Origin: Candidatus Omnitrophota bacterium
GTDB lineage: Bacteria; Omnitrophota; Gorgyraeia; Tantalellales; Tantalellaceae
Direction of reading: 5' to 3'
NCBI GenBank assembly: GCA_028715965.1
Contig: JAQUQS010000004.1
Location: forward strand, 1-59,962
DNA length: 59,962 nt
This document shows, in pieces, positions 14,505 to 29,503 of this stretch. Made by a program: the position numbers and the translations under genes. The notes beneath the pieces were generated by a model, which was not told where the DNA came from, did not search any database, and was given only the letters and a program-made list of their open reading frames with translations. Position 1 is the first letter of the stretch. Each line of letters begins with the position of its first letter.

Positions 14505-14512
14505 GGTGATAA

Positions 14513-15826
14513 ATGTATTTAGATATAGAGAAGAGTGAGCGAGACCGAATTGTAATTACTGGAGTAGGACCACTATGTTCTTTGGGCTCTGGGACTAAGC
14601 AAGTATGGGAATCCATAGATAAGGGAAAGCAAAATTTGGTTAAGCATAAACACACAATAGATGACATGGAATTAGGACAGTTTTATCTGCATAAAATTGA
14701 AAACTTTAATCTTGATGATTATGCTTTGCCGAAGGGAAATTATGTTTATGTAAATAGCTTGCGAGGTTTTAGAGACCCTGATGTGGATCTGCATTATTTT
14801 TTAGCCGCAGTTAAATTAGCATTAGAAGACAGTGGCTATGACTATGATTTAAAAGAAAACAAAGTCGGGCTTGTTCTTGCGCACGAGAATCCTGGGATGG
14901 AATCTTTGTTTGAAGATATAACGAAAAGTGCATACGAGATTTTCAAAAAATCTAAACAAAACGACAAATTAGATTTTATTCACGAATTATATGACGATTG
15001 TGAAGAGTCGGGATATAGTCTTCAGACGTTTACGTATTTGTACTCAGTTGCAAAAGTATTTGATTTGCACGGGTACTCTCTGTTTATAAATAATGCGTGT
15101 GCTTCAGGGCTCTTTGCAATCGAAGCGGCTGCCCGTAACATTAGAAGTGGCTTGAACACGGCAACGGTTGTTGCGGCGATAGATTCGCCCCTAAAAATTT
15201 ATAAATATATGTGGTTTAAAAAGCTAGGTTTATATAACGATGAAGATGGTAAAATGAAGCCATTTTCAAAAAAGGCAAATGGAGTTGTTTTTGGTGATGG
15301 AGGCGCTGCGCTGATATTGGAAACGTTAGAAAGTGCAAAAAAGCGAGGTGCTACAATTTATGCAGAGTATTTAGGTGGTGGGTTTTGCTTAGAGGGGTGG
15401 AAAATCACAGTACCAGATATCACAAGTAATTATTATGAAAAAGCCTTTGAGGAAGCGATTTACCGTTCTGGCATCAAAGCAAATAGCATTGATTTAGTTA
15501 ATCCACATGGAGTTGGGTTAAAAGTTACAGATTTATACGAAACCAGAACAATACAACGTGTACTTTCACAAAGAAGTGCTATGGTAAGTGCTTTTAAGCC
15601 ATTAGTTGGCCATAATTTGGGAGGAAGTGCTTTGTTGGAAACAGTGATAGGGCTTTTAGCGATGCAACATCAAACTGTACCGGCAACGTTGAATTGCGAG
15701 GATGTCATTGATGGGTGCGATCTGAATATTATTAAAAACAATAAAAAGGCTAAAATCGAAACGTTCGCAAAAATGGCCATAGGTTTTGCTGGATACAATG
15801 CAGTTGGTATATTCAGAAAGGTATAA
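14513..15826 (+). CDS. Divergent beta-ketoacyl synthase (catalytic triad retained)
   Basis: NNACASG, NPHG, KPLVGH, FGDGGAA; atypical N-terminal half (AHENPG). Confidence 0.85.
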   Translation: MYLDIEKSERDRIVITGVGPLCSLGSGTKQVWESIDKGKQNLVKHKHTIDDMELGQFYLHKIENFNLDDYALPKGNYVYVNSLRGFRDPDVDLHYFLAAVKLALEDSGYDYDLKENKVGLVLAHENPGMESLFEDITKSAYEIFKKSKQNDKLDFIHELYDDCEESGYSLQTFTYLYSVAKVFDLHGYSLFINNACASGLFAIEAAARNIRSGLNTATVVAAIDSPLKIYKYMWFKKLGLYNDEDGKMKPFSKKANGVVFGDGGAALILETLESAKKRGATIYAEYLGGGFCLEGWKITVPDITSNYYEKAFEEAIYRSGIKANSIDLVNPHGVGLKVTDLYETRTIQRVLSQRSAMVSAFKPLVGHNLGGSALLETVIGLLAMQHQTVPATLNCEDVIDGCDLNIIKNNKKAKIETFAKMAIGFAGYNAVGIFRKV

Positions 15827-15841
15827 TTAGCTGATTTGCAG

Positions 15842-16408
15842 ATGAAAAATGTAGTTATTTTGAACACATTGGATAATAACGCAAATAGTATGCATATGAC
15901 TATTGTTGACAAACTCAACAAAGTTCTTTCGCTGGAAAAATGCGATGTGCAGCATTACAAGATTCAGGATTTACATATAATGTCATGTGTAGGATGTTTT
16001 GGGTGCTGGGTTAAAACGCCTGGAATGTGTAGCATAGTTGATGATTCAAATGATATTATCAATGCTATCAAAAAGACGAATTATCTTGTCCTGCTCTCTA
16101 CTATAATGTTTGGTAGCTATTCGTCTGACATGAAAAAGATTATTGATAGATTAGCGCCACTTGCAGAACCGTTTTTTAGGCAAATAGATGGTATAACACA
16201 ACATGTGCCGAGAATTAATAGAGAAGTAAGGATTATAGCAATAGGTGTTAATGATACTGGACAGGATAAATATGGTGATGTATTTTCCTTGCTTGTTGAA
16301 AAAAATGCCCAAAATTTTTTTAATTCACGACATATTTGTCTTGTTTATAAAAGTTCGGTGGGGTGTAAAGGACTAGGGGATAAAATCTTATCTTTTATGC
16401 GGGGTTGA
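15842..16408 (+). CDS. Flavodoxin-fold / iron-sulfur flavoprotein-like protein
   Basis: SCVGCFGCWVKTPGMC cysteine motif and FGSYSSDMKKIIDR. Confidence 0.8.
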   Translation: MKNVVILNTLDNNANSMHMTIVDKLNKVLSLEKCDVQHYKIQDLHIMSCVGCFGCWVKTPGMCSIVDDSNDIINAIKKTNYLVLLSTIMFGSYSSDMKKIIDRLAPLAEPFFRQIDGITQHVPRINREVRIIAIGVNDTGQDKYGDVFSLLVEKNAQNFFNSRHICLVYKSSVGCKGLGDKILSFMRG

Positions 16409-16414
16409 GTTAAT

Positions 16415-17062
16415 ATGAGTACTCAAATTTTAATATTAATTGGTAGCCCAAAGAAGAAGGATAGTACATCAGAATCAATTGCTACTAAATTAAAATTAAT
16501 TTTGGGAGAGCAAGGAGCATGTGTACATGTCATGTCATTGTTTTTAAGTCTAAATGATAGCGAGAATATTGATAAATTTTTCAAAAAAATAAATTCAGTA
16601 GATATCATTACATTTATATCGCCGGTATATGTTGATTCTCCGCCTTTTATGGTTTTAAAATTTCTTGAAATTATTAGTGAAAAAAGCAAAACTCTTAATA
16701 ATGAAAAATGCAAAAAAATTTTTGCTATTTCACTCTGTGGCTATCCCGAAGCTGTTCACAACGAGCTTTCTTTAATGATTTATAAAAACTTTGCGGATTG
16801 TTGTGGTTTTTTGTGGGGAGGAGGAATGTCGATAAGCATGGCACCATTTATTAGGCAGGATCATATAAGGTATATTGGTGTTAAAAATCAAAATTTACTG
16901 CATTCGTATGAGATGTTGTGCAGGAAGATGTTAAGTGTGGAGGATGAAATTGATGATGAATGCATAGAAGTTGCTCCAATATTACCCAAGTGGCTATATT
17001 TGTCAATCGCCCACATAGCATGGTATTGCTCTTATGTTAGAAATGTTCTTAAAAGAGGCTAA
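16415..17062 (+). CDS. Flavodoxin-fold NAD(P)H-dependent oxidoreductase
   Basis: IGSPKKKDSTS FMN loop, SPVYVDSPP, CGYPE. Confidence 0.78.
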   Translation: MSTQILILIGSPKKKDSTSESIATKLKLILGEQGACVHVMSLFLSLNDSENIDKFFKKINSVDIITFISPVYVDSPPFMVLKFLEIISEKSKTLNNEKCKKIFAISLCGYPEAVHNELSLMIYKNFADCCGFLWGGGMSISMAPFIRQDHIRYIGVKNQNLLHSYEMLCRKMLSVEDEIDDECIEVAPILPKWLYLSIAHIAWYCSYVRNVLKRG

Positions 17063-17071
17063 CAGTAAAAC

Positions 17072-19228
17072 ATGGCTGGCTTAATATTCACAATATCAAA
17101 TTGTATAGTTTGGGTCACATGTATTATTCTTATCATAATACTCTTTGTATATGGTAAGAAAAAAGTTCACTACATGTGGGCATATTTTAATTTTGTGGGT
17201 GGCCTATGGGGATTAGGTGGTTTTTTAGTTGGTTTGTCCAAAGCCCCAACTGTTGCTATGATATCGTGGAAAATCGCATTGATAGGGTCCATATTTTCTC
17301 CAATTGTGTTCTATCATATGATAACTGTGTTAGGCGATTTGAATCGCAAGAAAATATTGTATATTTTTTACGCTTTTGGTATGTTTTTCTACCTTTTAAC
17401 ACTATTTGACTTTCTTGATTTATCAATAACACGGATTCATGATTCTTTGTTTTATGTAAAAGCGACAAATTACAAATGGGGACTTTTGGTGTCAATCTGG
17501 GGAATGATAGTCGCTTGTGCAATTGTAGAGCTATTTGTGTTGCTTAAGCAATCTACAGGAGCAAAGCGTACCCAGTATCAATTTATTTTTATAGGTTTTG
17601 TGGCAGCATTTTCTGGGGCAATATTAGATACCTTGCCCATGTGGGGATTAAACTTCCTGCCAGCGGCAAATTTGTTGATTTCGTTTTATTGTGTACTAGT
17701 GACGTATGCTATTTTGAGGCATAATTTGCTCGACATTGAAGTTATTATCAAAAAAACACTCGTATTTGCGGGTCTTTTCATTTTTGCGTATACGGTATTT
17801 GCGACTTTTGCATATATAGGTACAACATTTTTGGAAAACGTTGTTAATAATAGGTGGATAGCTATGATGCCATCAGTATTTATCGTTGTAATGTTATTGC
17901 GGCCATTAGAAAGCTTTCTCCGAAATATAACTGACAAATACCTATTTCAAAAACAGTATGACTCAAAACAGTTATTAAAGCTGTTCGCGAATGAGGTGTT
18001 ATCGGTTCTTGATATTAACCGTCTAGTGAATTTGACTGTGAATAGGCTTGTCGATTTTATGAAATTGGAAAATGCTTATATAATGTTGTTGGATGAGAAT
18101 AGGGAGATGTTTCGCGTTGTGGCATTCAGCGGAATGAGTCCTTCAAAATGGCATTTGGACGCCCAAAAAGAGTTTTTTGCCTATTTGCAGGTTACAGGAA
18201 AATATCTCCTTTTGGATGACCCTGCCAGAAAAAATATATTAAACCCATCGATAGTGTCTGTCATGGCGGATGAAAGATCAGTTTTAGCTATTCCTCTCTT
18301 TCATCGAAATGAAATGGTAGGGGTCTTGTTTCTCGGGAAGAAAAAATCGGATGAGATCTTTAACCAGGAAGATATTGATATCCTCTTGCCGTTGTCCCGC
18401 ACATTATCGATAGCCATAACGAACGCGCAGCTTTTTGAAAAGCTGTCTCAGGCACAGGCGCAGGCCGCCCAGCGGGAAAAGATGGCGGTTATTGGTACGC
18501 TCTCGGCCGGGATAAACCATGAGATATGTAATCCCCTGGGGATAGCGCGGGGGCAGTGCGAAATGTTCCTTCTCAACATGCAGGACGGTTTGTACGCCAC
18601 CAAATCTACGGGTGAACTTTTGGAGCAGGCCAAAGTGATAATGGAAAAGGTCATAAAAGAGACAGACAGGGCGACCGTTATAACGAAGAAATTGTCTTCA
18701 TTCGCGAAGCCGGCCAAAGGGGAAATAACCAATGATGTCAACGCCGAGAAAGAGATAGATGAAGTAATGACGCTCGTGGAACATGATCTCAAGTTGGATA
18801 ATATAGTCATAACCAAGAGGGTGGAGGGCGATATCCCGGCGATATCCGCCGACAGGAAACAGCTCCAGGAGATACTTTTTAATATCGTGCGTAACGCGGC
18901 GCAGGCCATGGGACAGCGTGGGACCATTGAGATATCGGTTTACGCGCGGTTCGGGGAAGTCTACATCGACATTACGGATACAGGTGAGGGGATAAGCAAA
19001 CAGGACCAGGCGCGCATTTTCGATCCATTCTTCACGACAAAAGAACCGGGTAAAGGTACGGGATTGGGCCTTTTCATAGTGAAGCAGATCGTGGAAAGGA
19101 ATAACGGCCGGATCTTTGTTAAAAGCGAATCCGGCAGTGGGACCACGTTCACGCTTGTTTTTAAGGCTTTTGATAGCAGTGATGTGAATGAACATGACAA
19201 TATAGGCGTGAGAGAAAATAACGCGTAA
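17072..19228 (+). CDS. Sensor histidine kinase HK0: multi-TM (HisKA_7TM-like) sensor, GAF, HisKA, HATPase
   Basis: About 7+ hydrophobic helices, GAF (IPLFHRNEMVGVLFLGKK), H-box INHEICNPL, N box NAAQA, DTGEG, FFTTK, GTGLGL. Confidence 0.93.
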   Translation: MAGLIFTISNCIVWVTCIILIIILFVYGKKKVHYMWAYFNFVGGLWGLGGFLVGLSKAPTVAMISWKIALIGSIFSPIVFYHMITVLGDLNRKKILYIFYAFGMFFYLLTLFDFLDLSITRIHDSLFYVKATNYKWGLLVSIWGMIVACAIVELFVLLKQSTGAKRTQYQFIFIGFVAAFSGAILDTLPMWGLNFLPAANLLISFYCVLVTYAILRHNLLDIEVIIKKTLVFAGLFIFAYTVFATFAYIGTTFLENVVNNRWIAMMPSVFIVVMLLRPLESFLRNITDKYLFQKQYDSKQLLKLFANEVLSVLDINRLVNLTVNRLVDFMKLENAYIMLLDENREMFRVVAFSGMSPSKWHLDAQKEFFAYLQVTGKYLLLDDPARKNILNPSIVSVMADERSVLAIPLFHRNEMVGVLFLGKKKSDEIFNQEDIDILLPLSRTLSIAITNAQLFEKLSQAQAQAAQREKMAVIGTLSAGINHEICNPLGIARGQCEMFLLNMQDGLYATKSTGELLEQAKVIMEKVIKETDRATVITKKLSSFAKPAKGEITNDVNAEKEIDEVMTLVEHDLKLDNIVITKRVEGDIPAISADRKQLQEILFNIVRNAAQAMGQRGTIEISVYARFGEVYIDITDTGEGISKQDQARIFDPFFTTKEPGKGTGLGLFIVKQIVERNNGRIFVKSESGSGTTFTLVFKAFDSSDVNEHDNIGVRENNA

Positions 19229-19249
19229 ATATCGGGGTATTTCATTAAT

Positions 19250-19651
19250 ATGGGGGGAGGCAAGGTGGATAAACCAAAGATACTTTCGGTGGATGATGAA
19301 GCGAATTTCACCGATATGCTTAAACAGTACTTTGAGCCGAGGGGCTACGAGATCGATACGGCGTCTAACGGGGAAACGGGCATCGAAATGCTGAAACTTA
19401 AGAAATATGACGTGGCACTTCTGGACTTCAAGATGGTAGGGCTTAACGGGGACGAAGTTATGGGGTGCATTAAGGATGTTTCTCCCGGTACGACTATAAT
19501 CTTTATCACCGCCTTCAGTGATTCCGGGAAGACCAGGCAGTCCCTTATAGACAAAGGCGCTTACGCGTTCATGGAAAAACCTGTTGCCAGCCTCAAGAAT
19601 CTCGAGGAATTGGTGAACCAGGCCGCTAACACCGTAAGGAGGAGTGAATAA
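19250..19651 (+). CDS. Stand-alone response regulator receiver
   Basis: VDDE, LLDFKM, ITAF, MEKP; no output domain. Confidence 0.92.
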   Translation: MGGGKVDKPKILSVDDEANFTDMLKQYFEPRGYEIDTASNGETGIEMLKLKKYDVALLDFKMVGLNGDEVMGCIKDVSPGTTIIFITAFSDSGKTRQSLIDKGAYAFMEKPVASLKNLEELVNQAANTVRRSE

Positions 19652-20033
19652 TATGCTAAAATTACTTGTTGTCGATGACGAAGTGGACATCTGTGATTTT
19701 GTAAGAAGTTTCTTCAAGGAACGTAATTTTGAGGTATTTGTCGCATACAACGGCAAGAAGGCCATCGAGACCATTGAGAAGGAAAAACCGGATATCGTGC
19801 TTCTCGATATGAATATGCCCGGAATGACCGGACTTGAAGCGCTTCGGGAGCTTCGGCAGCAAGGCAACCAGATAAAAACTATCATGGTGACCGCCGTCGA
19901 CGAGCCGGATAAGATCGAGGAAGCGAAAAAACATGGTGTGGTGGAGTATATAACGAAACCGCTGCTTTTAGAGCAGCTTGAACGTACGGTTTTTACCGTG
20001 GCGGAACAGATAAGGATGGATAGCGCAAAATAA
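19644..20033 (+). CDS. Stand-alone response regulator receiver
   Basis: VDDE, LLDMNMPGMTG, VTAV, ITKP; no output domain. Confidence 0.93.
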   Translation: MNNMLKLLVVDDEVDICDFVRSFFKERNFEVFVAYNGKKAIETIEKEKPDIVLLDMNMPGMTGLEALRELRQQGNQIKTIMVTAVDEPDKIEEAKKHGVVEYITKPLLLEQLERTVFTVAEQIRMDSAK

Positions 20034-20061
20034 CGGTTCGGCTGAAAGGGGAGAGGGAGAA

Positions 20062-21384
20062 ATGGCTTACTCAGATAGCTGGCAGAGGTTGCAGGACTGG
20101 ACGGTCGAGAAGATAAAGAACTGCGACGGGGCCCTTATACCAATGGACAGGGACAGTATAAGGCAGCGGCAGGAACCCGAGCTCGATTACCAGTTCATGC
20201 TTGAGGCGGCGTCGCGTACCATGATACGCTTCAAGAAGCCCGAAAGGCTTATAAGGATGATAGTCCGGGTAATGGATGAGCAGGTGAAGGTAACGCATAC
20301 TGCTATGCTTCTCAGGAAAGACGCATCCGGGCCTTTCACCCTGATAGACAGTAAGGGCGCGGAAGGAGTCAAGATACCGGTCGGGTTCATTAAGCTTACC
20401 GACGAGAATTCGCTTATACGCCTTTTTAACGAACGCCATAATTACAAAATGTCGGAATCCGGGTCGGTTGGGTACAAGGACCTCTTGAATTTCCTTCAGC
20501 GAGACCCGGCGACCAAGTCCGATAGCGACCTGAAATCCATAGTTGAAATGGCCATCAAGCAGATGGAGCTTTTAAAGGCGACTTTATGCGTGCCGGTATA
20601 TTATAAAAAAGACCTTATCGGCGTACTTATATTGGGGAAAAAGCTCTCGAATGTGAAGTTCTCAAGGCAGGAAATAGGGTTCTTTACGACATTGGCCAAC
20701 GACGTAGCGATGGCGCTTTCGAACGCGCAGCTGATACAGGACCTCCAGGATAAAATATTCGAGGTGCATAATCTCTATGAAAGGGAGCATAGCCTGTTCA
20801 TACATACCGCGATATCTCTTGCCGCCGCTATCGACGCCAGGGACCCGTATACACACGGCCATACCGAGCGTGTGACGCAATACGCTCTAAGCATAGCCGA
20901 AGAGCTCCAGGAGCTTCCGGAAGCAGCGGAATACGCTAATTTCAAGGAAACGCTGCATATTTCCGGCCTTTTGCATGATGTCGGGAAGATAGGCGTGCCG
21001 GATGGCATTCTCAATAAAAAGAGCAGCCTTACGGACGACGAGTATGAAAAGCTCAAGGAGCATTCAGTTACGGGAGCGGCTATACTTTATCCGATACGTG
21101 AGCTCGGCGATGTGGCGCGTGAGGTCCGGTGCCATCATGAACGATGGGATGGGAAAGGATACCCTGACGGGTTGAAAGGCGAGGAAATACCGTTCATTTC
21201 GCGTATAATATCCGTCGCGGATACGTTTGACGCGATAACGAGCGACAGGCCGTATAGACAGAAAAAAATGGCGGAAGTAGCCATACAGATCATCAAGGAT
21301 AATTCTGGCAGCCAGTTCGATCCCATAGTGGTAAGCGCTTTTCTGCTGGCGCATCGGAAAGGCAAATTTGGTAACGTGTCATGA
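20062..21384 (+). CDS. GAF + HD-GYP cyclic-dinucleotide phosphodiesterase
   Basis: DPYTHGHTERV, LLHDVGKIG, HHERWDGKGYP, DAITSDRPYR; upstream GAF; no REC domain. Confidence 0.93.
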   Translation: MAYSDSWQRLQDWTVEKIKNCDGALIPMDRDSIRQRQEPELDYQFMLEAASRTMIRFKKPERLIRMIVRVMDEQVKVTHTAMLLRKDASGPFTLIDSKGAEGVKIPVGFIKLTDENSLIRLFNERHNYKMSESGSVGYKDLLNFLQRDPATKSDSDLKSIVEMAIKQMELLKATLCVPVYYKKDLIGVLILGKKLSNVKFSRQEIGFFTTLANDVAMALSNAQLIQDLQDKIFEVHNLYEREHSLFIHTAISLAAAIDARDPYTHGHTERVTQYALSIAEELQELPEAAEYANFKETLHISGLLHDVGKIGVPDGILNKKSSLTDDEYEKLKEHSVTGAAILYPIRELGDVAREVRCHHERWDGKGYPDGLKGEEIPFISRIISVADTFDAITSDRPYRQKKMAEVAIQIIKDNSGSQFDPIVVSAFLLAHRKGKFGNVS

Positions 21385-23000
21385 ACGCATTTGCGTTATC
21401 AGGATTTTTAGCGGGCTTTGCGTGCTTATGCATGGGGTTATTTGTTTTAAGGTACTCCACCAATAAAATCCATTTTACATTTTCCTTACAAGTACTTTCT
21501 ATCTCCATATGGGGTTTTGCATGTGGCTTTGCAGGAATTGCAAAAAATCCAACTAATGCTTTGTTGTGGTGGAAGATCGCGCATATAGTTGCTTTTTTTA
21601 TTATTGCATTTTTACTGCATCATGTTCTATTGGTTAGACAATTGAGTCGTCCGATACTAATATTTGGGGCGTATGTTATTTCGGTTTCTTTGCCAATTGT
21701 CTTCTATCTTAATTTTCATGGTATAACCATGAGATATGTATTCGATAGTTTTTATATTCCTGCCTATACAAATCTCATTTATCCTTCATATTGCATTCTT
21801 TGGTTCGCAATTGGTGTTTATATAACAATTCTTTTAATTGGTATGTACAGGCAAGCCTCTTTACCGGAAAAAACCGTTGCCAGATTATATATTTTTTCAT
21901 ATATTTTGGGGCTATGGGGTGGGGGAGCATATATCTTTCTCATATTTGGCTTAAATATCTATCCGTATGGAAATTATCTATTGCCAGTTATGTGTATTAT
22001 TATGACATATGCGATATTTAAGCACAGGCTATTCGAGATTAATGTTATTATGAAGAAAACGCTTATCTATTCGCTTCTCATAACGGTAATTACGCTTTCA
22101 TATTTTCTTATTGTCTATGCAATGGAACGATTTTTTAGTGTCTATGTTGGTTATCATTCACCGTGGTTGTCCATTTTGATAATTTCATTTATTATTTTGA
22201 TCTTCACGCCATTAAAGAACCGTATACAACATATCATTGATAAATACTTCTTTCGTGGTAGTATTGACCAGATAGATGAGGAGAACCGCCGTTTGGGATC
22301 CGAGCTGGAAAGGTCCGAGAGGTTAAAGTCCTTAGCAACGCTGGCTTCAGGCATGGCCCATGAGATAAAGAACCCGTTAACGTCTATTAAGACGTTCTCG
22401 GAGTTCGTGAAGACACGAGGAATGGATGCCGAGTTTCGGGAAAAATTTCAAAAAATAGTCCCACAGGAAATAGATAAAATAACCAATATCGTGAACCAGC
22501 TCCTTGATTATTCAAAAACGGACCGCACAAGGCTGGCAGAATGCAATATCCATGACATTCTGGATTATGTGCTGGCGCTCCATAATAATGAGCTTATCAA
22601 GCGCGGTATACGCCTTGAGAAGGCATATGAGGCCCGGGACGCCGGTATTACCTGTGACGCTAATAAGCTCAAACAGGCCTTTATAAACCTGGTCTTGAAC
22701 GCGATAGAGGCTATGGGCAGGGATGGGGCCTTGACCGTACAAACTGAAGCGGATGAAAAGGTGTTAACCATTGTAATTAAAGATACCGGCCCGGGGATAT
22801 CTAAAGAAAATTTAGCGCACTTATTTGATCCATTCTTTACGACCAAGGATAATGGTACCGGATTAGGGCTTTTTGTGACTCATCAGATAATTACCGCGAA
22901 TGGTGGCAAGATATCCGTATCCAGTGAAGAGGGGAAAGGAACAGAGTTCAGGGTGGAGTTGATCAAACATGAATGCATTCACGTTTTCAGGATTTACTAG
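21381..23000 (+). CDS. Membrane-sensor histidine kinase HK1
   Basis: Multi-TM N-terminus, AHEIKNPL, NAIEAM, DTGPG, FFTTK; no GAF. Confidence 0.92.
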   Translation: MNAFALSGFLAGFACLCMGLFVLRYSTNKIHFTFSLQVLSISIWGFACGFAGIAKNPTNALLWWKIAHIVAFFIIAFLLHHVLLVRQLSRPILIFGAYVISVSLPIVFYLNFHGITMRYVFDSFYIPAYTNLIYPSYCILWFAIGVYITILLIGMYRQASLPEKTVARLYIFSYILGLWGGGAYIFLIFGLNIYPYGNYLLPVMCIIMTYAIFKHRLFEINVIMKKTLIYSLLITVITLSYFLIVYAMERFFSVYVGYHSPWLSILIISFIILIFTPLKNRIQHIIDKYFFRGSIDQIDEENRRLGSELERSERLKSLATLASGMAHEIKNPLTSIKTFSEFVKTRGMDAEFREKFQKIVPQEIDKITNIVNQLLDYSKTDRTRLAECNIHDILDYVLALHNNELIKRGIRLEKAYEARDAGITCDANKLKQAFINLVLNAIEAMGRDGALTVQTEADEKVLTIVIKDTGPGISKENLAHLFDPFFTTKDNGTGLGLFVTHQIITANGGKISVSSEEGKGTEFRVELIKHECIHVFRIY

Positions 23001-23259
23001 GCACATTGACTTAAAGGTTGTTGGGAGTCCATATACCTTCGAAAAGTATACGCTTAATAGCAGGGGGGCGATATATGGGCGGGCGGCCACAAAAGAACAA
23101 ATAAAGCGCAGGATTTCACCTCAAATATTAGTATTTAAAAATTCAATTTTTGCGGGACATTGGACCACAAGCGGTCTTGGACAAACTGGTATTCCAGTTG
23201 TGGCATTATCTGGAAAAGCCGCTGCCAAGACGATATTGTCCTTAATTGCAGGAGAATGA
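22969..23259 (+). pseudogene. Chimeric remnant: first 9 codons of a sensor kinase fused to the C-terminal ~80 aa of a phytoene-dehydrogenase-family gene
   Basis: First 27 nt are 23/27 identical to the HK1 start; SPYTFEKYTLNSRGAIYG...AGHWT aligns with SPSTIEKFTFNTNGSMCG...AGHWT of 13086-14504. Confidence 0.82.
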
Positions 23260-23260
23260 A

Positions 23261-24853
23261 ATGACCTTATTCGGCGTCTCCGCATTGTTAGCCGGAGTCA
23301 CAAGTTTTTTTATGGGTATCTTTGTCTATTTGAATGGACAAAATGAAAAAGTAAACCGGACTTGGTTGGGAGTGACTTTTAGTGTCACAATTTGGGGTTT
23401 TGGGAGTTTTATAGCTACACACCCTTCTAATATTGGTTTTTCAATGCTTTTTTGGAAGCTGACATACATAGGAGTGATCTATGTCCCGGTATTTTTTTTC
23501 CATTTTGTTTGTGTTTTTTTAAAAATTGATAGAAGTAAGTTTATCAAGTTTTTATACCTTCTCGCGAGTTTTTATTTGGTCTCCTATCTCTTTTTTGATG
23601 ACACATTCTTGGGGGGTATTAATACAATTTTCGAGGGATTGCATTGGTGCGGTTACCCGGGACCAATATTTATTACGTTCTATGTCTCATTTTACTTAGG
23701 GCTTAATCTTTACTCGTTTTATTTGTTATTTAAAAAACTCAAATCGTCTTCGGGTATCGAAAAAACTCAGTTATTTTACCTGATAATAGGATCCGCCATA
23801 GGGTGGATAGGCTCCGAGGGCTGTTTCGCTGGGGTCTGGAATATCCCCATATATCCCTTATCAAATTTTCTTACAGCAATTTATCCCATAATTCTTGGGT
23901 ATGCTATTGTGAGGCACCAACTTCTTGAGATAGATGTTATCATTAAAAAGACCCTCATCTATTCCGTTCTGATAACCATAATTACGTTGCTATATTTCCT
24001 GATGGTTTACGCCATAGAGCGGCTCTCCAGCGTGTATATTGGCTATCATTCGCCTTTACTGTCAGTCGCCATAATTACATTCTTTATTCTCATCTTTACC
24101 CCTCTTAAGAACCGTATCCAGCATATCATCGATAAATATTTCTTCCGAGGCAGCATAGACCAGATTGACGCGGAAAAACGCCTATTGGAATCCGAACTGG
24201 AAAGGTCCGAGAGGTTAAAGTCCTTGGCAACGCTGGCGTCAGGCATGGCCCATGAGATAAAGAACCCGCTTACCAGTATCAAAACGTTCTCAGAGTTCGT
24301 TAAAACGAAAGGCGGAGACCCCGAGTTCAAGGAGAAGTTTGAGAAGATAGTCCCCCAGGAAATAGACAAAATAACCAATATCGTGAACCAGCTCCTGGAC
24401 TACTCAAAGACTGACCGCACAAGACTGACCGAGTGTAATATCCATGACATATTGGACTATGTGCTTGAGCTCCACAATAATGAGCTTATGAGGCGTGGGA
24501 TAAGGCTCCAGAAGGCCTACGGGGCCCAGAACCCGAATATCACCTGTGACGCCAACAAACTCAAACAGGCGTTTATTAATCTGGTATTGAACGCCATAGA
24601 GGCCATGGGGGAGAATGGGGTATTGACGGTAGGGACGGAGGGGGCTGATCATTTGGTTGTTATGGTGAAAGATACCGGTCCGGGGATTTCGCCCGCAAAC
24701 ATTCCACATCTATTTGACCCCTTCTTTACGACAAAGGATAGCGGCACGGGATTAGGGCTGTTCGTTACTCATCAGATAATATCCTCAAATGGCGGGAAGA
24801 TATCAGTATCCAGTGAAGAGGGGAAGGGTACAGAGTTTAAGGTGGAGTTTTGA
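23261..24853 (+). CDS. Membrane-sensor histidine kinase HK2
   Basis: Same architecture as HK1; RBS AGGAG before ATG 23261. Confidence 0.92.
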   Translation: MTLFGVSALLAGVTSFFMGIFVYLNGQNEKVNRTWLGVTFSVTIWGFGSFIATHPSNIGFSMLFWKLTYIGVIYVPVFFFHFVCVFLKIDRSKFIKFLYLLASFYLVSYLFFDDTFLGGINTIFEGLHWCGYPGPIFITFYVSFYLGLNLYSFYLLFKKLKSSSGIEKTQLFYLIIGSAIGWIGSEGCFAGVWNIPIYPLSNFLTAIYPIILGYAIVRHQLLEIDVIIKKTLIYSVLITIITLLYFLMVYAIERLSSVYIGYHSPLLSVAIITFFILIFTPLKNRIQHIIDKYFFRGSIDQIDAEKRLLESELERSERLKSLATLASGMAHEIKNPLTSIKTFSEFVKTKGGDPEFKEKFEKIVPQEIDKITNIVNQLLDYSKTDRTRLTECNIHDILDYVLELHNNELMRRGIRLQKAYGAQNPNITCDANKLKQAFINLVLNAIEAMGENGVLTVGTEGADHLVVMVKDTGPGISPANIPHLFDPFFTTKDSGTGLGLFVTHQIISSNGGKISVSSEEGKGTEFKVEF

Positions 24854-24866
24854 GGGTAAAGGAATA

Positions 24867-26474
24867 ATGAGTGTCTTTCAGTTATCAAATATCATGGTAG
24901 TGGCGACTAACTTTGGTATTGCCATATTTTTTCTTTTTAGCGCAAGAAAGCACTATTTGTTCGCATTATTTACCATGAGTGCTGGTGTTTGGGGAGTTGG
25001 AGCTTATATCTTTTCGTCAGCTTCAATGCAAGGGTATGATCTAGCGTTTTTAGGGTGGAAGATAGCATATATGGGGGCGTTCTTCACGGTAATATTTTTT
25101 TCACATTTTGTGATGAAATACCTGGATATGGGTCGTAAAAAACTTATCTTATATTTATACATATCGGGTTTAATCTTTTCATTTTTTAATTGGTATCAAA
25201 ACTCGCATTATTTCTTGCAAGACTTACGTTTTGTTTTTAATGAGATATATTGGCTCGATGCCATAAAAGCTAATAATTTTTTGTGGTACATATTTTATGT
25301 GAGTTATTACTGGGTTGCCTTGCTTTATGTTTTTTACAAGTTAATAGTTAAGTACTGCGACTCCGAAGGCGCATACAAACAAAAAATCAAATATTTTATA
25401 ATTGCGGCTGGCATTGGTTGGTTGGGGACGGAACCGCTTTTTTTGCCAGCACTTCATGTTGACGCATATCCTTATTCGAACTTCCTTATCGCGATATATC
25501 CATTAATATTTGCATATGCTATTGTTCGGCATCAGGTGATGGATGTCGAAATCATAATTAAGAAGACCCTAATTTATTCTGCTCTAATAACTGTTATTAC
25601 TTTGCTTTACTTTCTTATTGTCTATGCTATGGAACGTATCTTCAGTGTGTATATTGGCTATCACTCTCCATTTTTATCTATTCTGATAATATCATTTATC
25701 ATCCTAATTTTCACGCCTCTCAAGAATCGGCTTCAACATATAGTTGATAAGTACTTCTTCAAGGGAAGCATAGACCAGATAGACGCGGAAAAACGCCTGT
25801 TAGAGTCCGAGCTGGAAAGGACAGAACGCCTCAAGTCCATAGCTACATTGGCTTCAGGCATGGCCCATGAGATAAAGAACCCGCTAACAAGTATAAAAAC
25901 GTTCTCGGAGTTCGTTAAAACGCGCGGTATGGAGCATGACTTTAGAGAGAAGTTCGAAAAGATAGTCCCCCAGGAAATAGACAAAATAACCAATATCGTC
26001 AACCAGCTCCTGGATTATTCCAAGACAGACCGTACAAGGCTGGCCGAATGTAACATTCATGATATTCTGGACTATGTGCTGGAATTACACAATAATGAGC
26101 TTATAAGGCGTAATATAAGGCTTGAGAAGGCCTATGCGGCCCAGAACCCGAACATCACCTGTGACCCCAATAAGCTTAAACAGGCCTTTATAAACCTGGT
26201 CCTGAACGCCATAGAGGCCATGGGGGAGAATGGGGTATTGACGGTAGGGACGGAGGGGGCTGATCATTTGGTTGTTATGGTGAAAGATACCGGTCCGGGG
26301 ATTTCGCCCGCAAACATTCCACATCTATTTGACCCCTTCTTTACGACAAAGGATAGCGGAACGGGGTTAGGGCTTTTTGTGACTCATCAGATAATTGCCG
26401 CGAATGCTGGTAAGATATCCGTAGTTAGTGAGAAGGGGAAGGGTACAGAGTTTAAGGTGGAGTTTGATCTATAA
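24867..26474 (+). CDS. Membrane-sensor histidine kinase HK3
   Basis: Same architecture as HK1/HK2; likely start ATG 24867 (MSVFQLSN). Confidence 0.92.
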   Translation: MSVFQLSNIMVVATNFGIAIFFLFSARKHYLFALFTMSAGVWGVGAYIFSSASMQGYDLAFLGWKIAYMGAFFTVIFFSHFVMKYLDMGRKKLILYLYISGLIFSFFNWYQNSHYFLQDLRFVFNEIYWLDAIKANNFLWYIFYVSYYWVALLYVFYKLIVKYCDSEGAYKQKIKYFIIAAGIGWLGTEPLFLPALHVDAYPYSNFLIAIYPLIFAYAIVRHQVMDVEIIIKKTLIYSALITVITLLYFLIVYAMERIFSVYIGYHSPFLSILIISFIILIFTPLKNRLQHIVDKYFFKGSIDQIDAEKRLLESELERTERLKSIATLASGMAHEIKNPLTSIKTFSEFVKTRGMEHDFREKFEKIVPQEIDKITNIVNQLLDYSKTDRTRLAECNIHDILDYVLELHNNELIRRNIRLEKAYAAQNPNITCDPNKLKQAFINLVLNAIEAMGENGVLTVGTEGADHLVVMVKDTGPGISPANIPHLFDPFFTTKDSGTGLGLFVTHQIIAANAGKISVVSEKGKGTEFKVEFDL

Positions 26475-26476
26475 GG

Positions 26477-28075
26477 CTATATCGTGAGCGTGAACGTTGT
26501 TCCTGTTCCTAAAGTACTTTTTACATCTATTTTTCCGTTATGTTTATCAATTATCCCATGAACTACGCTTAGCCCCAGCCCCGAGCCTTCGTCTTTCCGG
26601 GTGAAGAACGGGTCGAATATGTTCTTTAAGTCTTTTTTGTCTATACCACACCCTGTATCCTCGATGGAGATAGATATTTTACTATCAAAGATACGTGTTC
26701 TCACGGTAAGTGTCCCGCCGGACTTCATGGCGTCAATAGCGTTCAGTAAAAGGTTTAACAGCGCTTGTTTCATCTGGGGGGGATCGATGTTGACCATAGG
26801 TAACGGTGAGAGTTCTTTTATGGCCCTTATATCTTTCTTGATCATTTCATTGTTGAGTAGGGACAGTGTCTCCTCTATCAGGGCGTTCATATCGGTCGGT
26901 ACCGGGACCAGCTCCTTAGGTTTGGAGAATTCCAGTAGTTGTTTGACTATGTTGTTTATCCGTTCAACTTCGGTTATGACGATACCGGAGAATTTATCCC
27001 TGAATTCCGGGTTGTCGCCTTTGACGGGCAGGTATTCGGCGAATGTTTTTATGGCGGTCAGGGGGTTCTTTATCTCATGTGCCATGCCGGCAGCGAGTGT
27101 GGAAACGGCTTTCAATTTCTCGCTTTTTTGGAGCTCCCCCCGCAGGCGGATGTTTTCTTCGTCTATCTGGTCAATAGTGTTATGGAAGTAATATTTATCA
27201 ACTGTCTTTTGTACCTTGATTTTGACTGGTTGCAAAACTATGGTAAAAAGTAAGATTATGGCGATTGTTAAATATGGCGAATGATAACCGTAATAATTTC
27301 GGAATATAAGTTCGATAACGATTATCACGAAGAAGTATAATAATGTAATTATGGTGCCAAGAATGGAATAAACAAGTGTTTTTCGTATGATTATCCTGAG
27401 GTCAATTAATCTATGGGCAAGTATTGCATATGTAAAACAGATCACGTAAAGTATCGCGAATAAATTTAAATAAGGAGGTAATGATACCCGGAAAAAGAGC
27501 AGGTAATTGCTCGAGCCCGAGATATATCCGCATACGATCCCAATAAGCAGGTATCTGATCTGGTTTTTTAATAATTTTGAGGCATGCTTATACGAAGAGA
27601 TCAGGTAATAGGTTGAAAGTATGGCATATGTATAGAAATAAATCAAATATGCGATGTAGGCTAATTCGGGGATGCCCCAATATGGGAAAATCCCGATGGG
27701 ACGCATGCCGCTGATAAAATATTTTGTAAAGATTATAGGCAAGAACAAAATGCTGATGACATAACCAGTTTTTATTAATCGCTTAAGTTCTAATTGTAAA
27801 AAAGTGGTTATGAAGTGGAAAAGTGTTATTGGTATAAATACTGCGCCGCAATGTAATATTCGAAACCAAAGCATAGTTCCGGAATATGTCTCGGCTATTG
27901 GCCAAAAAATGTATCCAAAGCTCCACATGGCAAAAGATAAATTGGCCAATCCACAGCGAATGTTTATTTTTGAGTGGGGATTTCTGAATATAACTAAGAG
28001 GGCAAGAGAAAAGGCGCCCAGGAAATTTATGATGCCACTGATAGAAAATAGAAGTAAGTTGTTGTAAGATTGCAT
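26477..28075 (-). CDS. Membrane-sensor histidine kinase HK4
   Basis: Multi-TM N-terminus, AHEIKNPL, NAIDAM, DTGCG, FFTRK, GSGLGL; convergent with HK3. Confidence 0.92.
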   Translation of the reverse strand: MQSYNNLLLFSISGIINFLGAFSLALLVIFRNPHSKINIRCGLANLSFAMWSFGYIFWPIAETYSGTMLWFRILHCGAVFIPITLFHFITTFLQLELKRLIKTGYVISILFLPIIFTKYFISGMRPIGIFPYWGIPELAYIAYLIYFYTYAILSTYYLISSYKHASKLLKNQIRYLLIGIVCGYISGSSNYLLFFRVSLPPYLNLFAILYVICFTYAILAHRLIDLRIIIRKTLVYSILGTIITLLYFFVIIVIELIFRNYYGYHSPYLTIAIILLFTIVLQPVKIKVQKTVDKYYFHNTIDQIDEENIRLRGELQKSEKLKAVSTLAAGMAHEIKNPLTAIKTFAEYLPVKGDNPEFRDKFSGIVITEVERINNIVKQLLEFSKPKELVPVPTDMNALIEETLSLLNNEMIKKDIRAIKELSPLPMVNIDPPQMKQALLNLLLNAIDAMKSGGTLTVRTRIFDSKISISIEDTGCGIDKKDLKNIFDPFFTRKDEGSGLGLSVVHGIIDKHNGKIDVKSTLGTGTTFTLTI

Positions 28076-28090
28076 ATGGACTTCTATGCT

Positions 28091-28447
28091 TTATATCATT
28101 TTAACCTTTTCTTTTACTTCCTTGCTGTCGAAAGGCTTTGTGATATAGTCTATTGCGCCGAGTTTCACCGAGCGTGCCGCGGTCTCTACGCTCTGGTATC
28201 CGGTAATGATGATAACTTTGATGTCGGGGGATATGGCGCGGATCTCGGCCAGGGTTTCCAGGCCGTTCTTTACCGGCATTTTAAGGTCCAGGAGAAGGCC
28301 GTCGTAATTATTGTTCCTCACTTCCTGCACGGCTTCATCGCCGGACGAGGCGAACCCCAGGATATAATCGTCCCCCAGGATCAGGTCAAGGGCTTCACGT
28401 ATGCCTTTTTCGTCATCGCATATCAGTAAGCGTTTTTTATTATTCAT
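28091..28447 (-). CDS. Stand-alone response regulator receiver
   Basis: CDDE, LLDLKMP, ITGY, ITKP. Confidence 0.92.
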   Translation of the reverse strand: MNNKKRLLICDDEKGIREALDLILGDDYILGFASSGDEAVQEVRNNNYDGLLLDLKMPVKNGLETLAEIRAISPDIKVIIITGYQSVETAARSVKLGAIDYITKPFDSKEVKEKVKMI

Positions 28448-28468
28448 GGAACTCCTCCTTATGCAATC

Positions 28469-29020
28469 TTATAAAGCAGGTGGGGATAATACACATATGG
28501 CTTCCGCATCGGCCTTGGACGCGTTCACGAATCTGTGTTTGAGCGAAGCGTCGAAGTAAAGGCTGTCACCCTTACGGAGGGTATATTTATCCTCTCCCAC
28601 ATGCGCGTCAAAAGATCCGGATATGACGTAAACAAATTTTTCAATGCCAGGTTTGGTCTGCTCTTCCTGGGTCGACCCTCCTGGGCCGAGAAGCATCATA
28701 AGAGGCATGATCTTTTTATCCAGGGCCTTCATTACAAGTAGTTCGTATTTCGCTTTTGCCGAATGGACAAAATGTTCCGTGCGTTTTTTGTGGGGAACCG
28801 CCTCAACGGTCTTATTTTCGTCCTCAAGTTCCCTGTAAAGTTCTGCTATGGAGACGTCCAATGCCTTACAGATACTTATGTGGGATTTTAATGTGCCGGG
28901 CATCTTATTGTTTTCCATGCGGCTTAGCGTTGCCAGGGCGACGCCGCTTTTACTTGATAATTCCTCAAGTGTGAGGCCTTTATCTTTCCTCAATTGGTGC
29001 AATCTATGGCCTATTTTCAT
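28469..29020 (-). CDS. XRE-family HTH + cupin transcriptional regulator
   Basis: LTLEELSSKSGVALATLSRMEN HTH; cupin EKFVYVISG...GDSLYFDASLKHRFVN; RBS GGAGG. Confidence 0.92.
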   Translation of the reverse strand: MKIGHRLHQLRKDKGLTLEELSSKSGVALATLSRMENNKMPGTLKSHISICKALDVSIAELYRELEDENKTVEAVPHKKRTEHFVHSAKAKYELLVMKALDKKIMPLMMLLGPGGSTQEEQTKPGIEKFVYVISGSFDAHVGEDKYTLRKGDSLYFDASLKHRFVNASKADAEAICVLSPPAL

Positions 29021-29100
29021 GTGTCACCTCCGTTTGGGTATAATATTACTATACTTCAAATTTAAACAATAATCAAATTAAATTTCCCATTTATCAAACC

Positions 29101-29486
29101 GTACCCGGTACAAGGTGAAGGCGGGGACAGGTTAAGCGGGAGTTTGTACCAGGTACAAGGTTGCTCGGAGGCCCAGAAAGGCGGGGACAGGTTGAGAAGG
29201 AGTTTGTACCAGGTACAAAAGGTGAGAAAGGTTCAGACCGACCGAGGGGCCACCGAGCCCCGAGGAAGTGTCGGAAACCCAGGAAGGTTCAGACCGACCG
29301 AGGGGGCACCGAGCCCCGAGAAAGTGTCGGAGGTCCAGAAAGACGGGGACAGGTTGAGCGGGAGTTTGTACCAGGTACAAAAGGTGAGAAAGGTTCAGAC
29401 CGACCGAGGGGCCACCGAGCCGCGAGGAAGTGTCGGAGGGCCAGAAAGGCGGGGACAGGTTAAGCGGGGGTTTGTACCAGGTACAA
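29101..29486. repeat. Mosaic array of two palindromic repeat units (REP/BIME-like)
   Basis: Unit A (GGCGGGGACAGGTT...TTGTACC-A-GGTACAA) with palindromes at 29144, 29204, 29366, 29472 plus a partial at 29101; 48-nt unit B at 29228, 29284, 29390. Confidence 0.9.
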
Positions 29487-29503
29487 GGTTGCTTACACAT
29501 TCT

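What the first reader, a model, noticed from the sequence alone, without database searches (positions are those of the whole stretch)
21381..26474. Three tandem kinases with divergent sensors but near-identical, mosaic kinase cores (157-bp exact repeat)
Seen: HK1-3 N-terminal ~220 aa are highly divergent and AT-rich, while from about KKTLIYS onward they are very similar. HK2 24588-24744 and HK3 26203-26359 are identical over 157 nt. The closest partner switches along the gene: HK1 and HK2 share GAAAGGTCCGAGAGGTTAAAGTCCTT, HK1 and HK3 share TTAGGGCTTTTTGTGACTCATCAGATAATT, and HK2 and HK3 share the 3' GGGGAAGGGTACAGAGTTTAAGGTGGAGTTT. Inference: gene conversion or recombination homogenises the transmitter so that many inputs phosphorylate one receiver, while sensor modules are acquired or shuffled as a receptor repertoire.
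Basis: partly seen in the sequence, partly recalled or inferred. Interest (0 to 1): 0.75.

Follow-up and report, generated by a model that had tools for sequence, protein, structure and literature searches.

The report
Sensor-swapping kinase array in Omnitrophota
Three neighbouring membrane sensor kinases of an uncultured landfill Omnitrophota bacterium are chimeras: old, unrelated-looking 7-helix sensor cassettes, borrowed from a different kinase type, sit on one shared signalling half that is occasionally patched by gene conversion, giving a natural example of how bacteria rebuild their sensory repertoire.

Summary
HK2 24588-24744 and HK3 26203-26359 are identical over 157 nt, and the three short shared motifs sit where stated. 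The kinases are 22-34% identical in the first ~225 aa and 81-92% identical in the DHp/ATPase core. "Near-identical" is overstated, because the cores are only 78-86% identical in DNA (dS about 1).

All five local kinases (HK0-HK4) share one architecture: a 7TM sensor, a TM7-TM8 loop motif I-I-K-K-T-L, a TM8-9 hairpin, then DHp and CA. Across five related loci the cores cluster by genome and the sensors cluster by type across genomes (AU p 4e-29 and 2e-52).

Each HK1-3 sensor has its nearest known relative on the GAF-containing HK0-type kinase of another genome. HK2 still carries, just upstream, the last ~85 codons of the FAD oxidase that precedes HK0 everywhere else. A second assembly of the same population is 100% identical over the array, but its HK0 carries an HK3-like sensor. 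Sensor codon usage (GC3 0.32-0.43) is foreign to the host (about 0.6), and control membrane proteins show that hydrophobicity does not explain this.

Verdict: sensor-cassette replacement plus sporadic core gene conversion. Signalling from many kinases to one receiver is plausible but untested.

The parts
21381..23000 (+). HK1: 7TM sensor (21381-22046), junction IMKKTL (22047-22064), TM8-9 hairpin, DHp and HATPase core. A 1-nt loss near the end gives a 12-aa C-terminal read-through.
   Evidence: ORF and Pfam HisKA and HATPase_c; HisKA_7TM scores 23.2 bits, below its cutoff. The sensor is 55-56% identical to the GAF-type kinase P0123. The core is 81-83% aa identical to HK2 and HK3.
22969..23259 (+). 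Recombination scar: 9 codons of an HK1-like start, then the last ~85 codons of a FAD-dependent oxidase, ending just before the HK2 start codon.
   Evidence: 24/28 nt match the HK1 start. The ORF is 55% aa identical to the L085 FADox C-terminus (E 4e-29), 52% to L088's, and only ~30% to the window's own FADox. Window 23065-23955 is collinear with the FADox->HK0 junction of L088 (64% over 911 nt).
23261..24853 (+). HK2: sensor (23261-23938), junction IIKKTL (23939-23956), core. ATG at 23261; an upstream TTG lies at 23246.
   Evidence: Pfam HisKA_7TM 67.9 bits, plus HisKA and HATPase_c. The sensor is 58-63% identical to L081_d and to the GAF-type kinases P0058 and P0068, in a clade with 100/100 support. 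AF2 model, pLDDT 83.6.
24588..24744 (+). Conversion tract, HK2 copy (end of N-box, G1, F-box, start of G2 of the ATP-binding domain).
   Evidence: Exact 157-nt identity with 26203-26359. It spans 48 consecutive HK2=HK3 informative sites with dS 0.03.
24867..26474 (+). HK3: sensor (24867-25553), junction IIKKTL (25554-25571), core.
   Evidence: Pfam. The sensor is 84% aa and 77% nt identical to the HK0 sensor of L082, and the homology ends at IIKKTL. The next-best sensor relatives are the GAF-type kinases P0121 and P0122.
26203..26359 (+). Conversion tract, HK3 copy.
26477..28075 (-). HK4: fourth array kinase, convergent with HK3 (stop codons 2 nt apart). Its core belongs to a different lineage (type I) from HK1-3.
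   Evidence: Pfam. The core is 58-66% identical to the L081/L085/L086 array cores and 46-48% to HK1-3. The sensor is 49-56% identical to L086_b and P0057.
28091..28447 (-). REC3: stand-alone receiver and likely common partner of the array kinases.
   Evidence: Pfam Response_reg. Orthologues are 53-72% identical and sit next to every array compared.
28469..29020 (-). HTH-cupin regulator that heads the REC3/HK4 operon.
   Evidence: Pfam HTH_3 and Cupin_2. Synteny is conserved.
17072..19228 (+). HK0: 7TM sensor (17072-17743), IIKKTL, TM8-9, GAF, DHp/CA. Bases 17072-18397 are polymorphic between strains; bases from 18398 onward are identical.
   Evidence: Pfam. Against L082 there are 171 differences in 17732-18397, none from 18398 to 29572, and no similarity upstream of 17732. 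The de Bruijn graph of run X1 branches exactly at 18398.
19250..21384 (+). REC1 (19250-19651), REC2 (19644-20033) and the GAF-HD-GYP protein (20062-21384). This is the HK0 output module, and it is translationally coupled (ATGA overlap) to HK1.
   Evidence: Pfam. Synteny is conserved in L081, L085, L086, L088, L089 and L090.
13065..18397 (+). AT-rich variable island: FAD oxidase, ketosynthase, two flavodoxin-like genes, and the sensor and GAF half of HK0.
   Evidence: GC3 is 0.28-0.40 here against about 0.55-0.65 in the rest of the window. The island is replaced by different genes in L082.

Best explanation
HK1-HK3 are chimeric paralogues made by cassette replacement.

How the array was built:
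- A GAF-less kinase chassis (TM8-9 hairpin, DHp, CA) was duplicated in tandem behind the HK0-REC-REC-HD-GYP operon.
- Each copy's 7TM sensor was then replaced by a sensor lineage that elsewhere sits on the GAF-containing HK0 kinase, which lies next to a small acyl/polyketide-like gene cluster.
- The 3' crossover lies at or just after the conserved cytoplasmic TM7-TM8 loop (I-I-K-K-T-L) or in the conserved chassis. The 5' crossover can be illegitimate, as in HK2, which dragged in the tail of the FAD oxidase gene.

What keeps the cores alike: the conserved cores then undergo occasional non-reciprocal exchange, of which the 157-nt HK2/HK3 tract is the newest. They are also held by strong purifying selection (dN/dS about 0.06).

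Proposed function: because the DHp helices of HK1-3 are identical and almost the same as HK4's, the array most likely feeds several membrane-sensed inputs into one stand-alone receiver, REC3. HK0 has a different DHp and would serve REC1 and REC2.

Status of the steps: the chimerism, the scar, the conversion tract, the tree incongruence, the strain polymorphism and the codon-usage mismatch are shown. The order of events, the donors and the phosphotransfer wiring are inferred.
For: 1. Tree incongruence. Cores form per-genome clades: W_HK1-3 100/99, L081a-d 100/99, L085a-c 99/91. Sensors scatter, with W_HK2+L081_d+P0058+P0068 at 100/100, W_HK3+L082_HK0 at 100/100 and W_HK0+L083_b at 100/99. AU tests reject a W_HK1-3 sensor clade (p 4e-29) and a W_HK2+L081_d core clade (p 2e-52).
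2. Sensors on two chassis. The nearest relatives of the HK1, HK2 and HK3 sensors are GAF-type kinases: P0123 at 56%, P0058/P0068 at 60-63%, L082_HK0 at 84%, and P0121/P0122 at 47/41%. Their cores are only about 33-36% identical. The P0058 and P0122 loci show FADox->HK0->REC->HD-GYP; P0123's short contig shows the kinase followed by two receivers.
3. Scar. A FADox C-terminal remnant plus the HK2 sensor is collinear with an FADox->HK0 junction, and it is preceded by 9 codons of an HK1-like start.
4. Sharp module boundary. HK3/L082_HK0 homology (77% nt over 668 nt) stops at IIKKTL. In the AF2 model that motif lies in the loop between TM7 and TM8.
5. Composition. Sensor GC3 is 0.32-0.43, cores 0.52-0.60, and host genes including 3-7-TM controls 0.58-0.60. 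Phe is coded as TTC in 0.23 of cases in sensors and 0.58 in control membrane proteins. The same split occurs in L083, L088 and L090.
6. Conversion. The 157-nt tract has dS 0.03 against about 1 elsewhere, and site patterns are clustered. Other arrays have exact tracts of 355, 176 and 175 nt.
7. Strain polymorphism, with its breakpoint at the GAF/DHp border.
8. DHp helices are identical in HK1-3, and REC3 is conserved beside the arrays.
Against: - Cores clustering by genome can also be produced by conversion alone on an old array. The two processes cannot be fully separated, and for the syntenic type-I arrays (L081, L085, L086) conversion alone is the simpler reading.
- No near-identical donor was found. 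The best sensor match outside this population is 63%, so the time and source of each swap are unknown.
- The low GC3 of sensors might instead reflect escape from GC-biased recombination rather than foreign origin.
- All sequences come from short-read metagenome assemblies. Bubble popping could have erased a few real differences inside the 157-nt tract.
- L082 could be chimeric beyond the 31-mer level.
- The clades tested by AU were named after the trees had been seen.
- The mosaic outside the main tract is only marginal at third codon positions (p=0.028).
- There is no functional data at all.
Confidence: 0.72

Rival explanations
1. Concerted evolution only. The array and its sensor set are old and vertically inherited. 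Repeated intragenomic gene conversion confined to the alignable 3' halves keeps the cores alike, and no sensor was ever imported or moved between chassis in this lineage.
For: Cores cluster by genome in all five arrays, and three arrays carry long exact tracts. Some sensor types recur in syntenic arrays, such as L081_b with L086_c and W_HK4 with L086_b. For the HK4-type sensor group the core tree rejects congruence only weakly (p=0.046).
Against: The FADox-tail scar in front of HK2 shows physical transfer from an FADox->HK0 junction. The same sensor lineages sit on GAF-type and GAF-less chassis whose cores are only about 33% identical. Sensor codon usage differs from that of the cores and the host. 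Core dS of about 1 means conversion has been infrequent here.
Confidence: 0.15
2. Plain divergence after tandem duplication. The sensors diverged quickly in place under relaxed or diversifying selection, the cores stayed alike through purifying selection, and there was no recombination.
For: dN/dS in the cores is about 0.06, and the DHp motif is conserved across genomes. All sensors belong to one Pfam family and have the same length.
Against: Each sensor is far closer to sensors in other genomes (up to 84%) than to its neighbours (22-34%); AU p=4e-29. A 157-nt tract with dS 0.03 sits inside genes with dS of about 1. The scar and the GC3 mismatch also argue against it.
Confidence: 0.04
3. Assembly artefact. 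The exact repeat, the mosaic or the L082/window difference arise from collapsed paralogues or chimeric joins in short-read metagenome assembly.
For: Only short-read assemblies exist. Logan contigs break inside the kinase cores.
Against: Two assemblies agree base for base over 11.2 kb. Contig depth over the repeat matches two copies, 26.8 against an expected 26.4. A single X2 contig spans 16000-19041. The X1 graph branches exactly one base after the last window/L082 difference. The sensor-core alternation repeats five times in the window and in independent assemblies from other samples.
Confidence: 0.04

Closest known systems
Lineage-specific expansion of histidine kinases with domain shuffling (Alm, Huang & Arkin 2006, PMC1630713)
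   Same: Recent paralogues of the kinase domain within one genome carry different upstream sensory parts. That paper also notes that shuffling may occur in membrane or extracellular regions its profiles could not detect.
   Different: Here the swapped part is always the same fold (HisKA_7TM), and it is exchanged at one fixed loop motif. The donor class (HK0-type kinase beside a biosynthetic cluster) can be named, a physical scar is preserved, and core-to-core gene conversion is seen. 'Gene conversion' does not occur in the main text of that paper.
Pherotype loci: Bacillus comQXP(A) and staphylococcal agr
   Same: The polymorphic block covers the signal-making genes plus the 5' (sensor) part of the kinase gene (comQ, comX, 5' comP; agrB, agrD, agrC) (PMC6334282; PMC10482373). 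Here the window and L082 differ in the biosynthetic genes and the HK0 sensor (plus GAF), and are identical from the DHp onward.
   Different: No signal molecule or signal-receptor specificity is known here. The putative signal genes are acyl/polyketide-type, not peptide-type. Only two alleles were seen. The extra tandem array of HK0-type sensors on a second chassis has no counterpart in agr or comQXP that I know of.
Many-to-one two-component pathways (B. subtilis KinA-E to Spo0F; Vibrio harveyi LuxN/LuxQ/CqsS to LuxU); cited from my own knowledge
   Same: Several kinases with different sensors have a shared partner interface (identical DHp helices in HK1-3) and sit next to one stand-alone receiver.
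   Different: In those systems the kinases are dispersed, old and structurally diverse. Here they are tandem, share one chassis and exchange sequence. Convergence on REC3 is untested.
Concerted evolution of prokaryotic paralogues (e.g. PMC6053082)
   Same: Paralogues are more alike than orthologues, with identity tracts that have sharp ends.
   Different: Conversion is confined to one half of the gene, while the other half is replaced by cassettes. 'Histidine kinase' does not occur in the text of that survey (term count).

Membership tests
HisKA_7TM histidine kinases (Pfam PF16927 + PF00512 + PF02518) | N-terminal 7TM region matching PF16927 above the gathering score | tested here: met
   HK2 scores 67.9, HK3 44.6 and HK4 48.2 bits against a cutoff of 28.6. 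HK1 (23.2) and HK0 (25.6) fall just below it but align full-length. AF2 models show 7 helices at pLDDT of about 90.
HisKA_7TM histidine kinases (Pfam PF16927 + PF00512 + PF02518) | HisKA phospho-acceptor (H-box) and HATPase_c catalytic domain | tested here: met
   HK1-HK4 pass the Pfam cutoffs for both domains. HK0 passes HATPase_c, but its HisKA match is below the cutoff (21.6 against 26.9 bits). The H-box HEI(K/C)NP is present in all five.
Interlocus gene conversion / concerted evolution | Paralogues more similar to each other than to orthologues | tested here: met
   Cores are 81-92% identical within the window against at most 64% to any other genome. The same holds in L081, L085 and L086.
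Interlocus gene conversion / concerted evolution | Identity tracts with abrupt ends, and synonymous divergence that varies along the gene | tested here: met
   The 157-nt tract has dS 0.03. DHp/CA-N have dS 0.9-1.7, and TM8-9 is saturated.
Interlocus gene conversion / concerted evolution | Significant clustering of discordant site patterns (mosaic) | tested here: met
   Runs tests give p<5e-5 both with and without the main tract. Third codon positions only give p=0.028.
Pherotype-type polymorphic signalling locus (comQXP/agr-like) | Within-population polymorphic block spanning the synthesis genes and the sensor half of the kinase, with the kinase core and regulator conserved | tested here: inconclusive
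   Two forms exist, the window and L082, with a breakpoint at 18397/18398 and 0 differences downstream. A graph branch in run X1 supports co-occurrence. Only two alleles are known, and the contiguity of L082 could not be checked on reads.
Pherotype-type polymorphic signalling locus (comQXP/agr-like) | The adjacent genes make a signal that the cognate sensor recognises specifically | not testable with these tools
   Only synteny of ACP/KS/nitroreductase/FADox with HK0 in six loci.
Many-to-one phosphotransfer pathway | Kinases share partner-specificity determinants in the DHp helices | tested here: met
   DHp alpha1 and alpha2 are identical in HK1-3, with differences only in the loop. HK4 differs at a few positions, and HK0 is different.
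Many-to-one phosphotransfer pathway | Several kinases phosphorylate the same receiver | not testable with these tools
   This needs in-vitro phosphotransfer profiling.

The most novel reading that the evidence does not exclude
The locus may be a polymorphic, lipid-like (acyl/polyketide-derived) cell-cell signalling system of the comQXP/agr kind. In this reading, HK0's sensor co-varies with the adjacent biosynthetic genes and defines a 'pherotype'. The HK1-3 array would then be an archive of HK0-type sensors from other pherotypes, re-mounted on a common GAF-less chassis. The cell could thereby listen to the signals of foreign strains through one receiver (REC3), separately from its own HK0->REC1/2->HD-GYP (c-di-GMP) channel. 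The evidence does not exclude this. All three array sensors have HK0-type nearest relatives, one (HK3) matches the HK0 sensor of a co-occurring strain at 84%, and one (HK2) still carries the FADox tail.
Probability: 0.2. Interest if true: 0.85.

Novelty: new variant of a known kind. Interest (0 to 1): 0.62.

Why it matters
Two-component evolution is usually described as duplication followed by insulation of the new pair. Here nature does the opposite. It keeps one transmitter interface and swaps whole 7TM sensors at a fixed loop, between two kinase chassis, between genomes and between co-existing strains, and it leaves a datable scar.

This gives three things:
- A natural map of a permissive fusion point (the TM7-TM8 loop I-I-K-K-T-L) for engineering chimeric membrane sensors.
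- A concrete, testable case of many-to-one signalling in a phylum with no genetics.
- A candidate strain-specific signalling (pherotype-like) locus in uncultured Omnitrophota.

The pattern recurs in every related locus examined, so it is a property of the family and not an oddity of one contig.

Tried and rejected
- The genome-contig scan found no close relative; the best match was 35% identical. Relatives came instead from the protein database and from look-ups of the contigs that encode them.
The L082-specific half was therefore tested only indirectly, through the graph branch at 18398 and the extra depth in run X1.
- I rejected hydrophobic amino-acid or TM codon bias as the cause of the AT-rich sensors. 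Other 3-7-TM proteins in the window have GC3 0.58-0.60 and use TTC for Phe in 0.58 of cases, against 0.23 in the sensors. The soluble island genes and HK0's GAF are also AT-rich, while HK2's TM8-9 is host-like.
- The promoter and terminator scan was not above the shuffled background, so it gives no operon information.
- A Foldseek search of the sensor model against the PDB returned only generic 7-helix-bundle hits (GPCRs, rhodopsins; best E 1.9e-3, TM 0.45-0.60, rmsd about 6 A). It gives no clue to the ligand.
- Literature searches for gene conversion or concerted evolution among histidine kinases, and for HisKA_7TM, found no description of this pattern.
- The FADox-like tails of L089 and L090 did not match the scar at E<=1e-3.

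Full report
**What is there**

The 21381-26474 stretch holds three co-directional histidine kinases: HK1 at 21381-23000, HK2 at 23261-24853 and HK3 at 24867-26474. The ORF start at 24789 overlaps HK2 and is not the real HK3 start.

These three are part of a larger block. On the plus strand it runs HK0 (17072-19228; 7TM-GAF-HisKA-HATPase), REC1, REC2, a GAF-HD-GYP protein, then HK1, HK2 and HK3. On the minus strand, converging on HK3, lie HK4 (26477-28075), REC3 and an HTH-cupin regulator, with uvrA beyond them. The organism is an uncultured Omnitrophota bacterium from landfill metagenomes.

**Check of the observation**

- The 157-nt identity (24588-24744 = 26203-26359) is exact and not extendable. 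The three short motifs occur only in the stated pairs.
- In a codon alignment, the first ~222 columns are 22-34% aa and about 47-51% nt identical. From the motif I-(I/M)-K-K-T-L onward the proteins are 70-100% identical.
- 'Near-identical cores' is overstated. Core DNA identity is 78-86%. NG86 dS is 0.9-1.7 in DHp and the first part of CA, 0.4-0.7 at the 3' end, saturated in the TM8-9 hairpin, and 0.03 only in the HK2/HK3 tract. dN/dS is about 0.06.
- Site patterns (which two of the three genes agree) are clustered. There are 118 runs against 167.6 +/- 7.3 in permutations. Without the 48-site tract there are 116 against 142.8 +/- 6.8 (both p<5e-5). Third codon positions only give p=0.028.
- So there is one unmistakable recent conversion and a weaker older mosaic.

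**Is it an assembly artefact?**

- A second public assembly (GCA_028711455.1, contig JAQTSE010000023.1 = L082) is identical to window 18398-29572 with no difference at all.
- In run X2 the Logan contig covering 24588-24848 has depth 26.8, against about 16.4 in neighbouring unique contigs. The depth expected for 157 nt in two copies plus 104 nt in one copy is 26.4.
- Both left flanks and both right flanks are unique, so only the assembled order uses all four on one linear molecule. This is my inference.
- Long reads are still missing, and bubble popping could hide a few real differences inside the tract.

**Architecture**

- All five kinases match or nearly match Pfam HisKA_7TM.
- The AF2 model of HK2 (pLDDT 83.6) has seven TM helices at 3-219 with pLDDT above 90, and a small hairpin at 118-131. 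A loop at 220-229 carries IIKKTL, and it is followed by TM8 (230-260) and TM9 (265-294). A long helix (296-350) then runs into DHp alpha1, followed by alpha2 (354-382) and the CA domain.
- A sensor-only model (pLDDT 89.7, pTM 0.88) has no informative PDB neighbour. It gives only generic 7-helix bundles.

**Comparison with relatives**

The same block occurs in other Omnitrophota assemblies. It has two parts. One is HTH-cupin, REC, then 2-4 array kinases. The other is ACP/KS/nitroreductase/FAD oxidase, then HK0, then one or two RECs, then HD-GYP.

Identity matrices and ML trees of the two gene halves disagree completely.

- Cores fall into three chassis clades: HK0-type, array type I (which includes W_HK4) and array type II (W_HK1-3 and L083). 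Within these clades they cluster by genome: W_HK1-3 100/99, L081a-d 100/99, L085a-c 99/91, L086a-b 97/98.
- Sensors cluster by type across genomes and across chassis: W_HK2+L081_d+P0058+P0068 100/100, W_HK3+L082_HK0 100/100, W_HK0+L083_b 100/99, L085_b+L086_HK0 100/99.
- AU tests reject a W_HK1-3 sensor clade (p 4e-29), an L081a-d sensor clade (p 2e-10), and a W_HK2+L081_d core clade (p 2e-52). These groups were named after the trees had been seen.
- Other arrays also hold long exact tracts between cores: L081 has 355, 176 and 116 nt, and L086 has 175 nt. Core conversion is therefore a family habit.

**Direct evidence for sensor transplantation**

1. Sensor-only database searches give GAF-type HK0 kinases as the nearest relatives of every array sensor. 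HK1 matches P0123 at 56%. HK2 matches P0058/P0068 at 60-63%. HK3 matches L082_HK0 at 84% and P0121/P0122 at 47/41%. The cores of these proteins are only about 33-36% identical to HK1-3.
2. The 246-bp 'spacer' before HK2 is a scar. It holds nine codons that match the HK1 start (24/28 nt), fused to the last ~85 codons of a FAD oxidase. That tail is 55% identical to L085's and 52% to L088's, but only about 30% to the window's own FADox. It ends just before the HK2 start codon. Window 23065-23955 is collinear with the FADox->HK0 junction of L088. An earlier first-reader note (e1-5219562) pointed to this scar, and I verified it.
3. L082's HK0 carries an HK3-like sensor. The homology (77% nt over 24903-25570) stops at IIKKTL.

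**Strain polymorphism**

The window and L082 have no DNA similarity upstream of 17732. They are about 75% identical over 17732-18397 (171 differences) and identical from 18398 on. The break is at the GAF/DHp border of HK0.

In run X1 the contig graph has a node boundary exactly at 18398, and shared contigs carry extra depth (21-24 against 18.9). In X2 a single contig runs from 16000 to 19041. Both forms therefore appear to co-exist in X1.

**Composition**

- Host genes have GC3 of about 0.55-0.65, including three membrane proteins with 3-7 predicted TM helices (0.58-0.60). The kinase cores, the RECs and HD-GYP have 0.52-0.61.
- The sensors have 0.32-0.43. The upstream island (13065-18397) has 0.28-0.40, and its genes are soluble enzymes plus HK0's GAF.
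- Per-amino-acid codon choice shows the same split: Phe is TTC in 0.23 of cases in sensors and 0.58 in control membrane proteins.
- The same split (variable part more AT-rich than constant part) recurs in L083, L088 and L090. It is absent in uniformly AT-rich genomes such as L081.
- It fits import from AT-rich relatives, or escape of hypervariable segments from GC-biased recombination. I cannot separate these two explanations.

**Function (inferred)**

- DHp alpha1 and alpha2 are identical in HK1-3. The motif AGMAHEIKNPLTSIKTF is kept in array kinases of all genomes compared, and a REC3-type receiver (53-72% identical) sits beside every array.
- HK0 kinases have a different, equally conserved DHp and are followed by REC1/REC2 and HD-GYP.
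- This fits several sensors feeding one receiver. It also shows that purifying selection, not conversion, explains most of the protein-level similarity.

**Comparison with what is known**

- Domain shuffling after lineage-specific expansion of kinases is established (Alm et al. 2006, PMC1630713).
- Polymorphic blocks covering signal genes plus the sensor part of the kinase gene are known from comQXP and agr (PMC6334282; PMC10482373).
- I found no paper describing tandem kinase arrays with a fixed intramembrane swap junction, exchange between two chassis types, and core conversion.
- Earlier unchecked notes of this scan report similar tandem kinases in other Omnitrophota and in Bacteroidota. 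I treat these as leads only.

**Verdict**

The evolutionary mechanism is well supported: cassette replacement plus sporadic conversion, at 0.72. The functional wiring and any signalling or pherotype role are untested.

Noticed in passing
window 17072-18397 vs L082 3797-5130: The HK0 sensor, TM8-9 and GAF are polymorphic between two assemblies that are otherwise identical over 11.2 kb. L082's HK0 carries an HK3-like sensor, and everything upstream (the biosynthetic genes) is different.
   Followed up: yes
window 13065-17062: AT-rich island (GC3 0.28-0.32) of soluble enzymes: a FAD oxidase, a ketosynthase and two flavodoxin-like proteins. It is syntenic with ACP/KS/nitroreductase/FADox clusters next to HK0 in relatives, but its gene content differs from L082's.
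   Followed up: partly
window 22955-23000: HK1 lacks one T compared with the HK3 end (GTGGAGTT-GATC against GTGGAGTTTGATC). It therefore reads 12 codons further, into the scar ORF.
   Followed up: partly
window 26474-26477: The convergent genes HK3 and HK4 end 2 nt apart with no room for a terminator. L083 has the same tight convergence between its last kinase and REC.
   Followed up: no
window 29100-29540: A block of near-identical direct repeats (29165-29275 against 29327-29437, 95.5% over 111 nt) lies between the HTH-cupin gene and uvrA. The L082 contig ends here, and many contig ends and loose ends fall here in the runs.
   Followed up: no
L081 5288-11596; L086 5994-10797: Other arrays carry even longer exact tracts between kinase cores: 355, 176 and 116 nt in L081, and 175 nt in L086.
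   Followed up: partly
window 24450-24750 (alignment columns 451-495): The segment from the N-box to G1 of the ATP-binding domain is where HK1 differs most from HK2/HK3 (52% aa, 61% nt). It is also where HK2 and HK3 are identical, so it may be a locally variable, exchangeable patch of the CA domain.
   Followed up: no
window 23939-24170 (HK2 TM8-9): HK2's TM8-9 hairpin has host-like GC3 (0.56), while those of HK1, HK3 and HK4 are AT-rich (0.31-0.36). The compositional breakpoints therefore differ between copies: at IIKKTL in HK2, and after TM9 in the others.
   Followed up: partly
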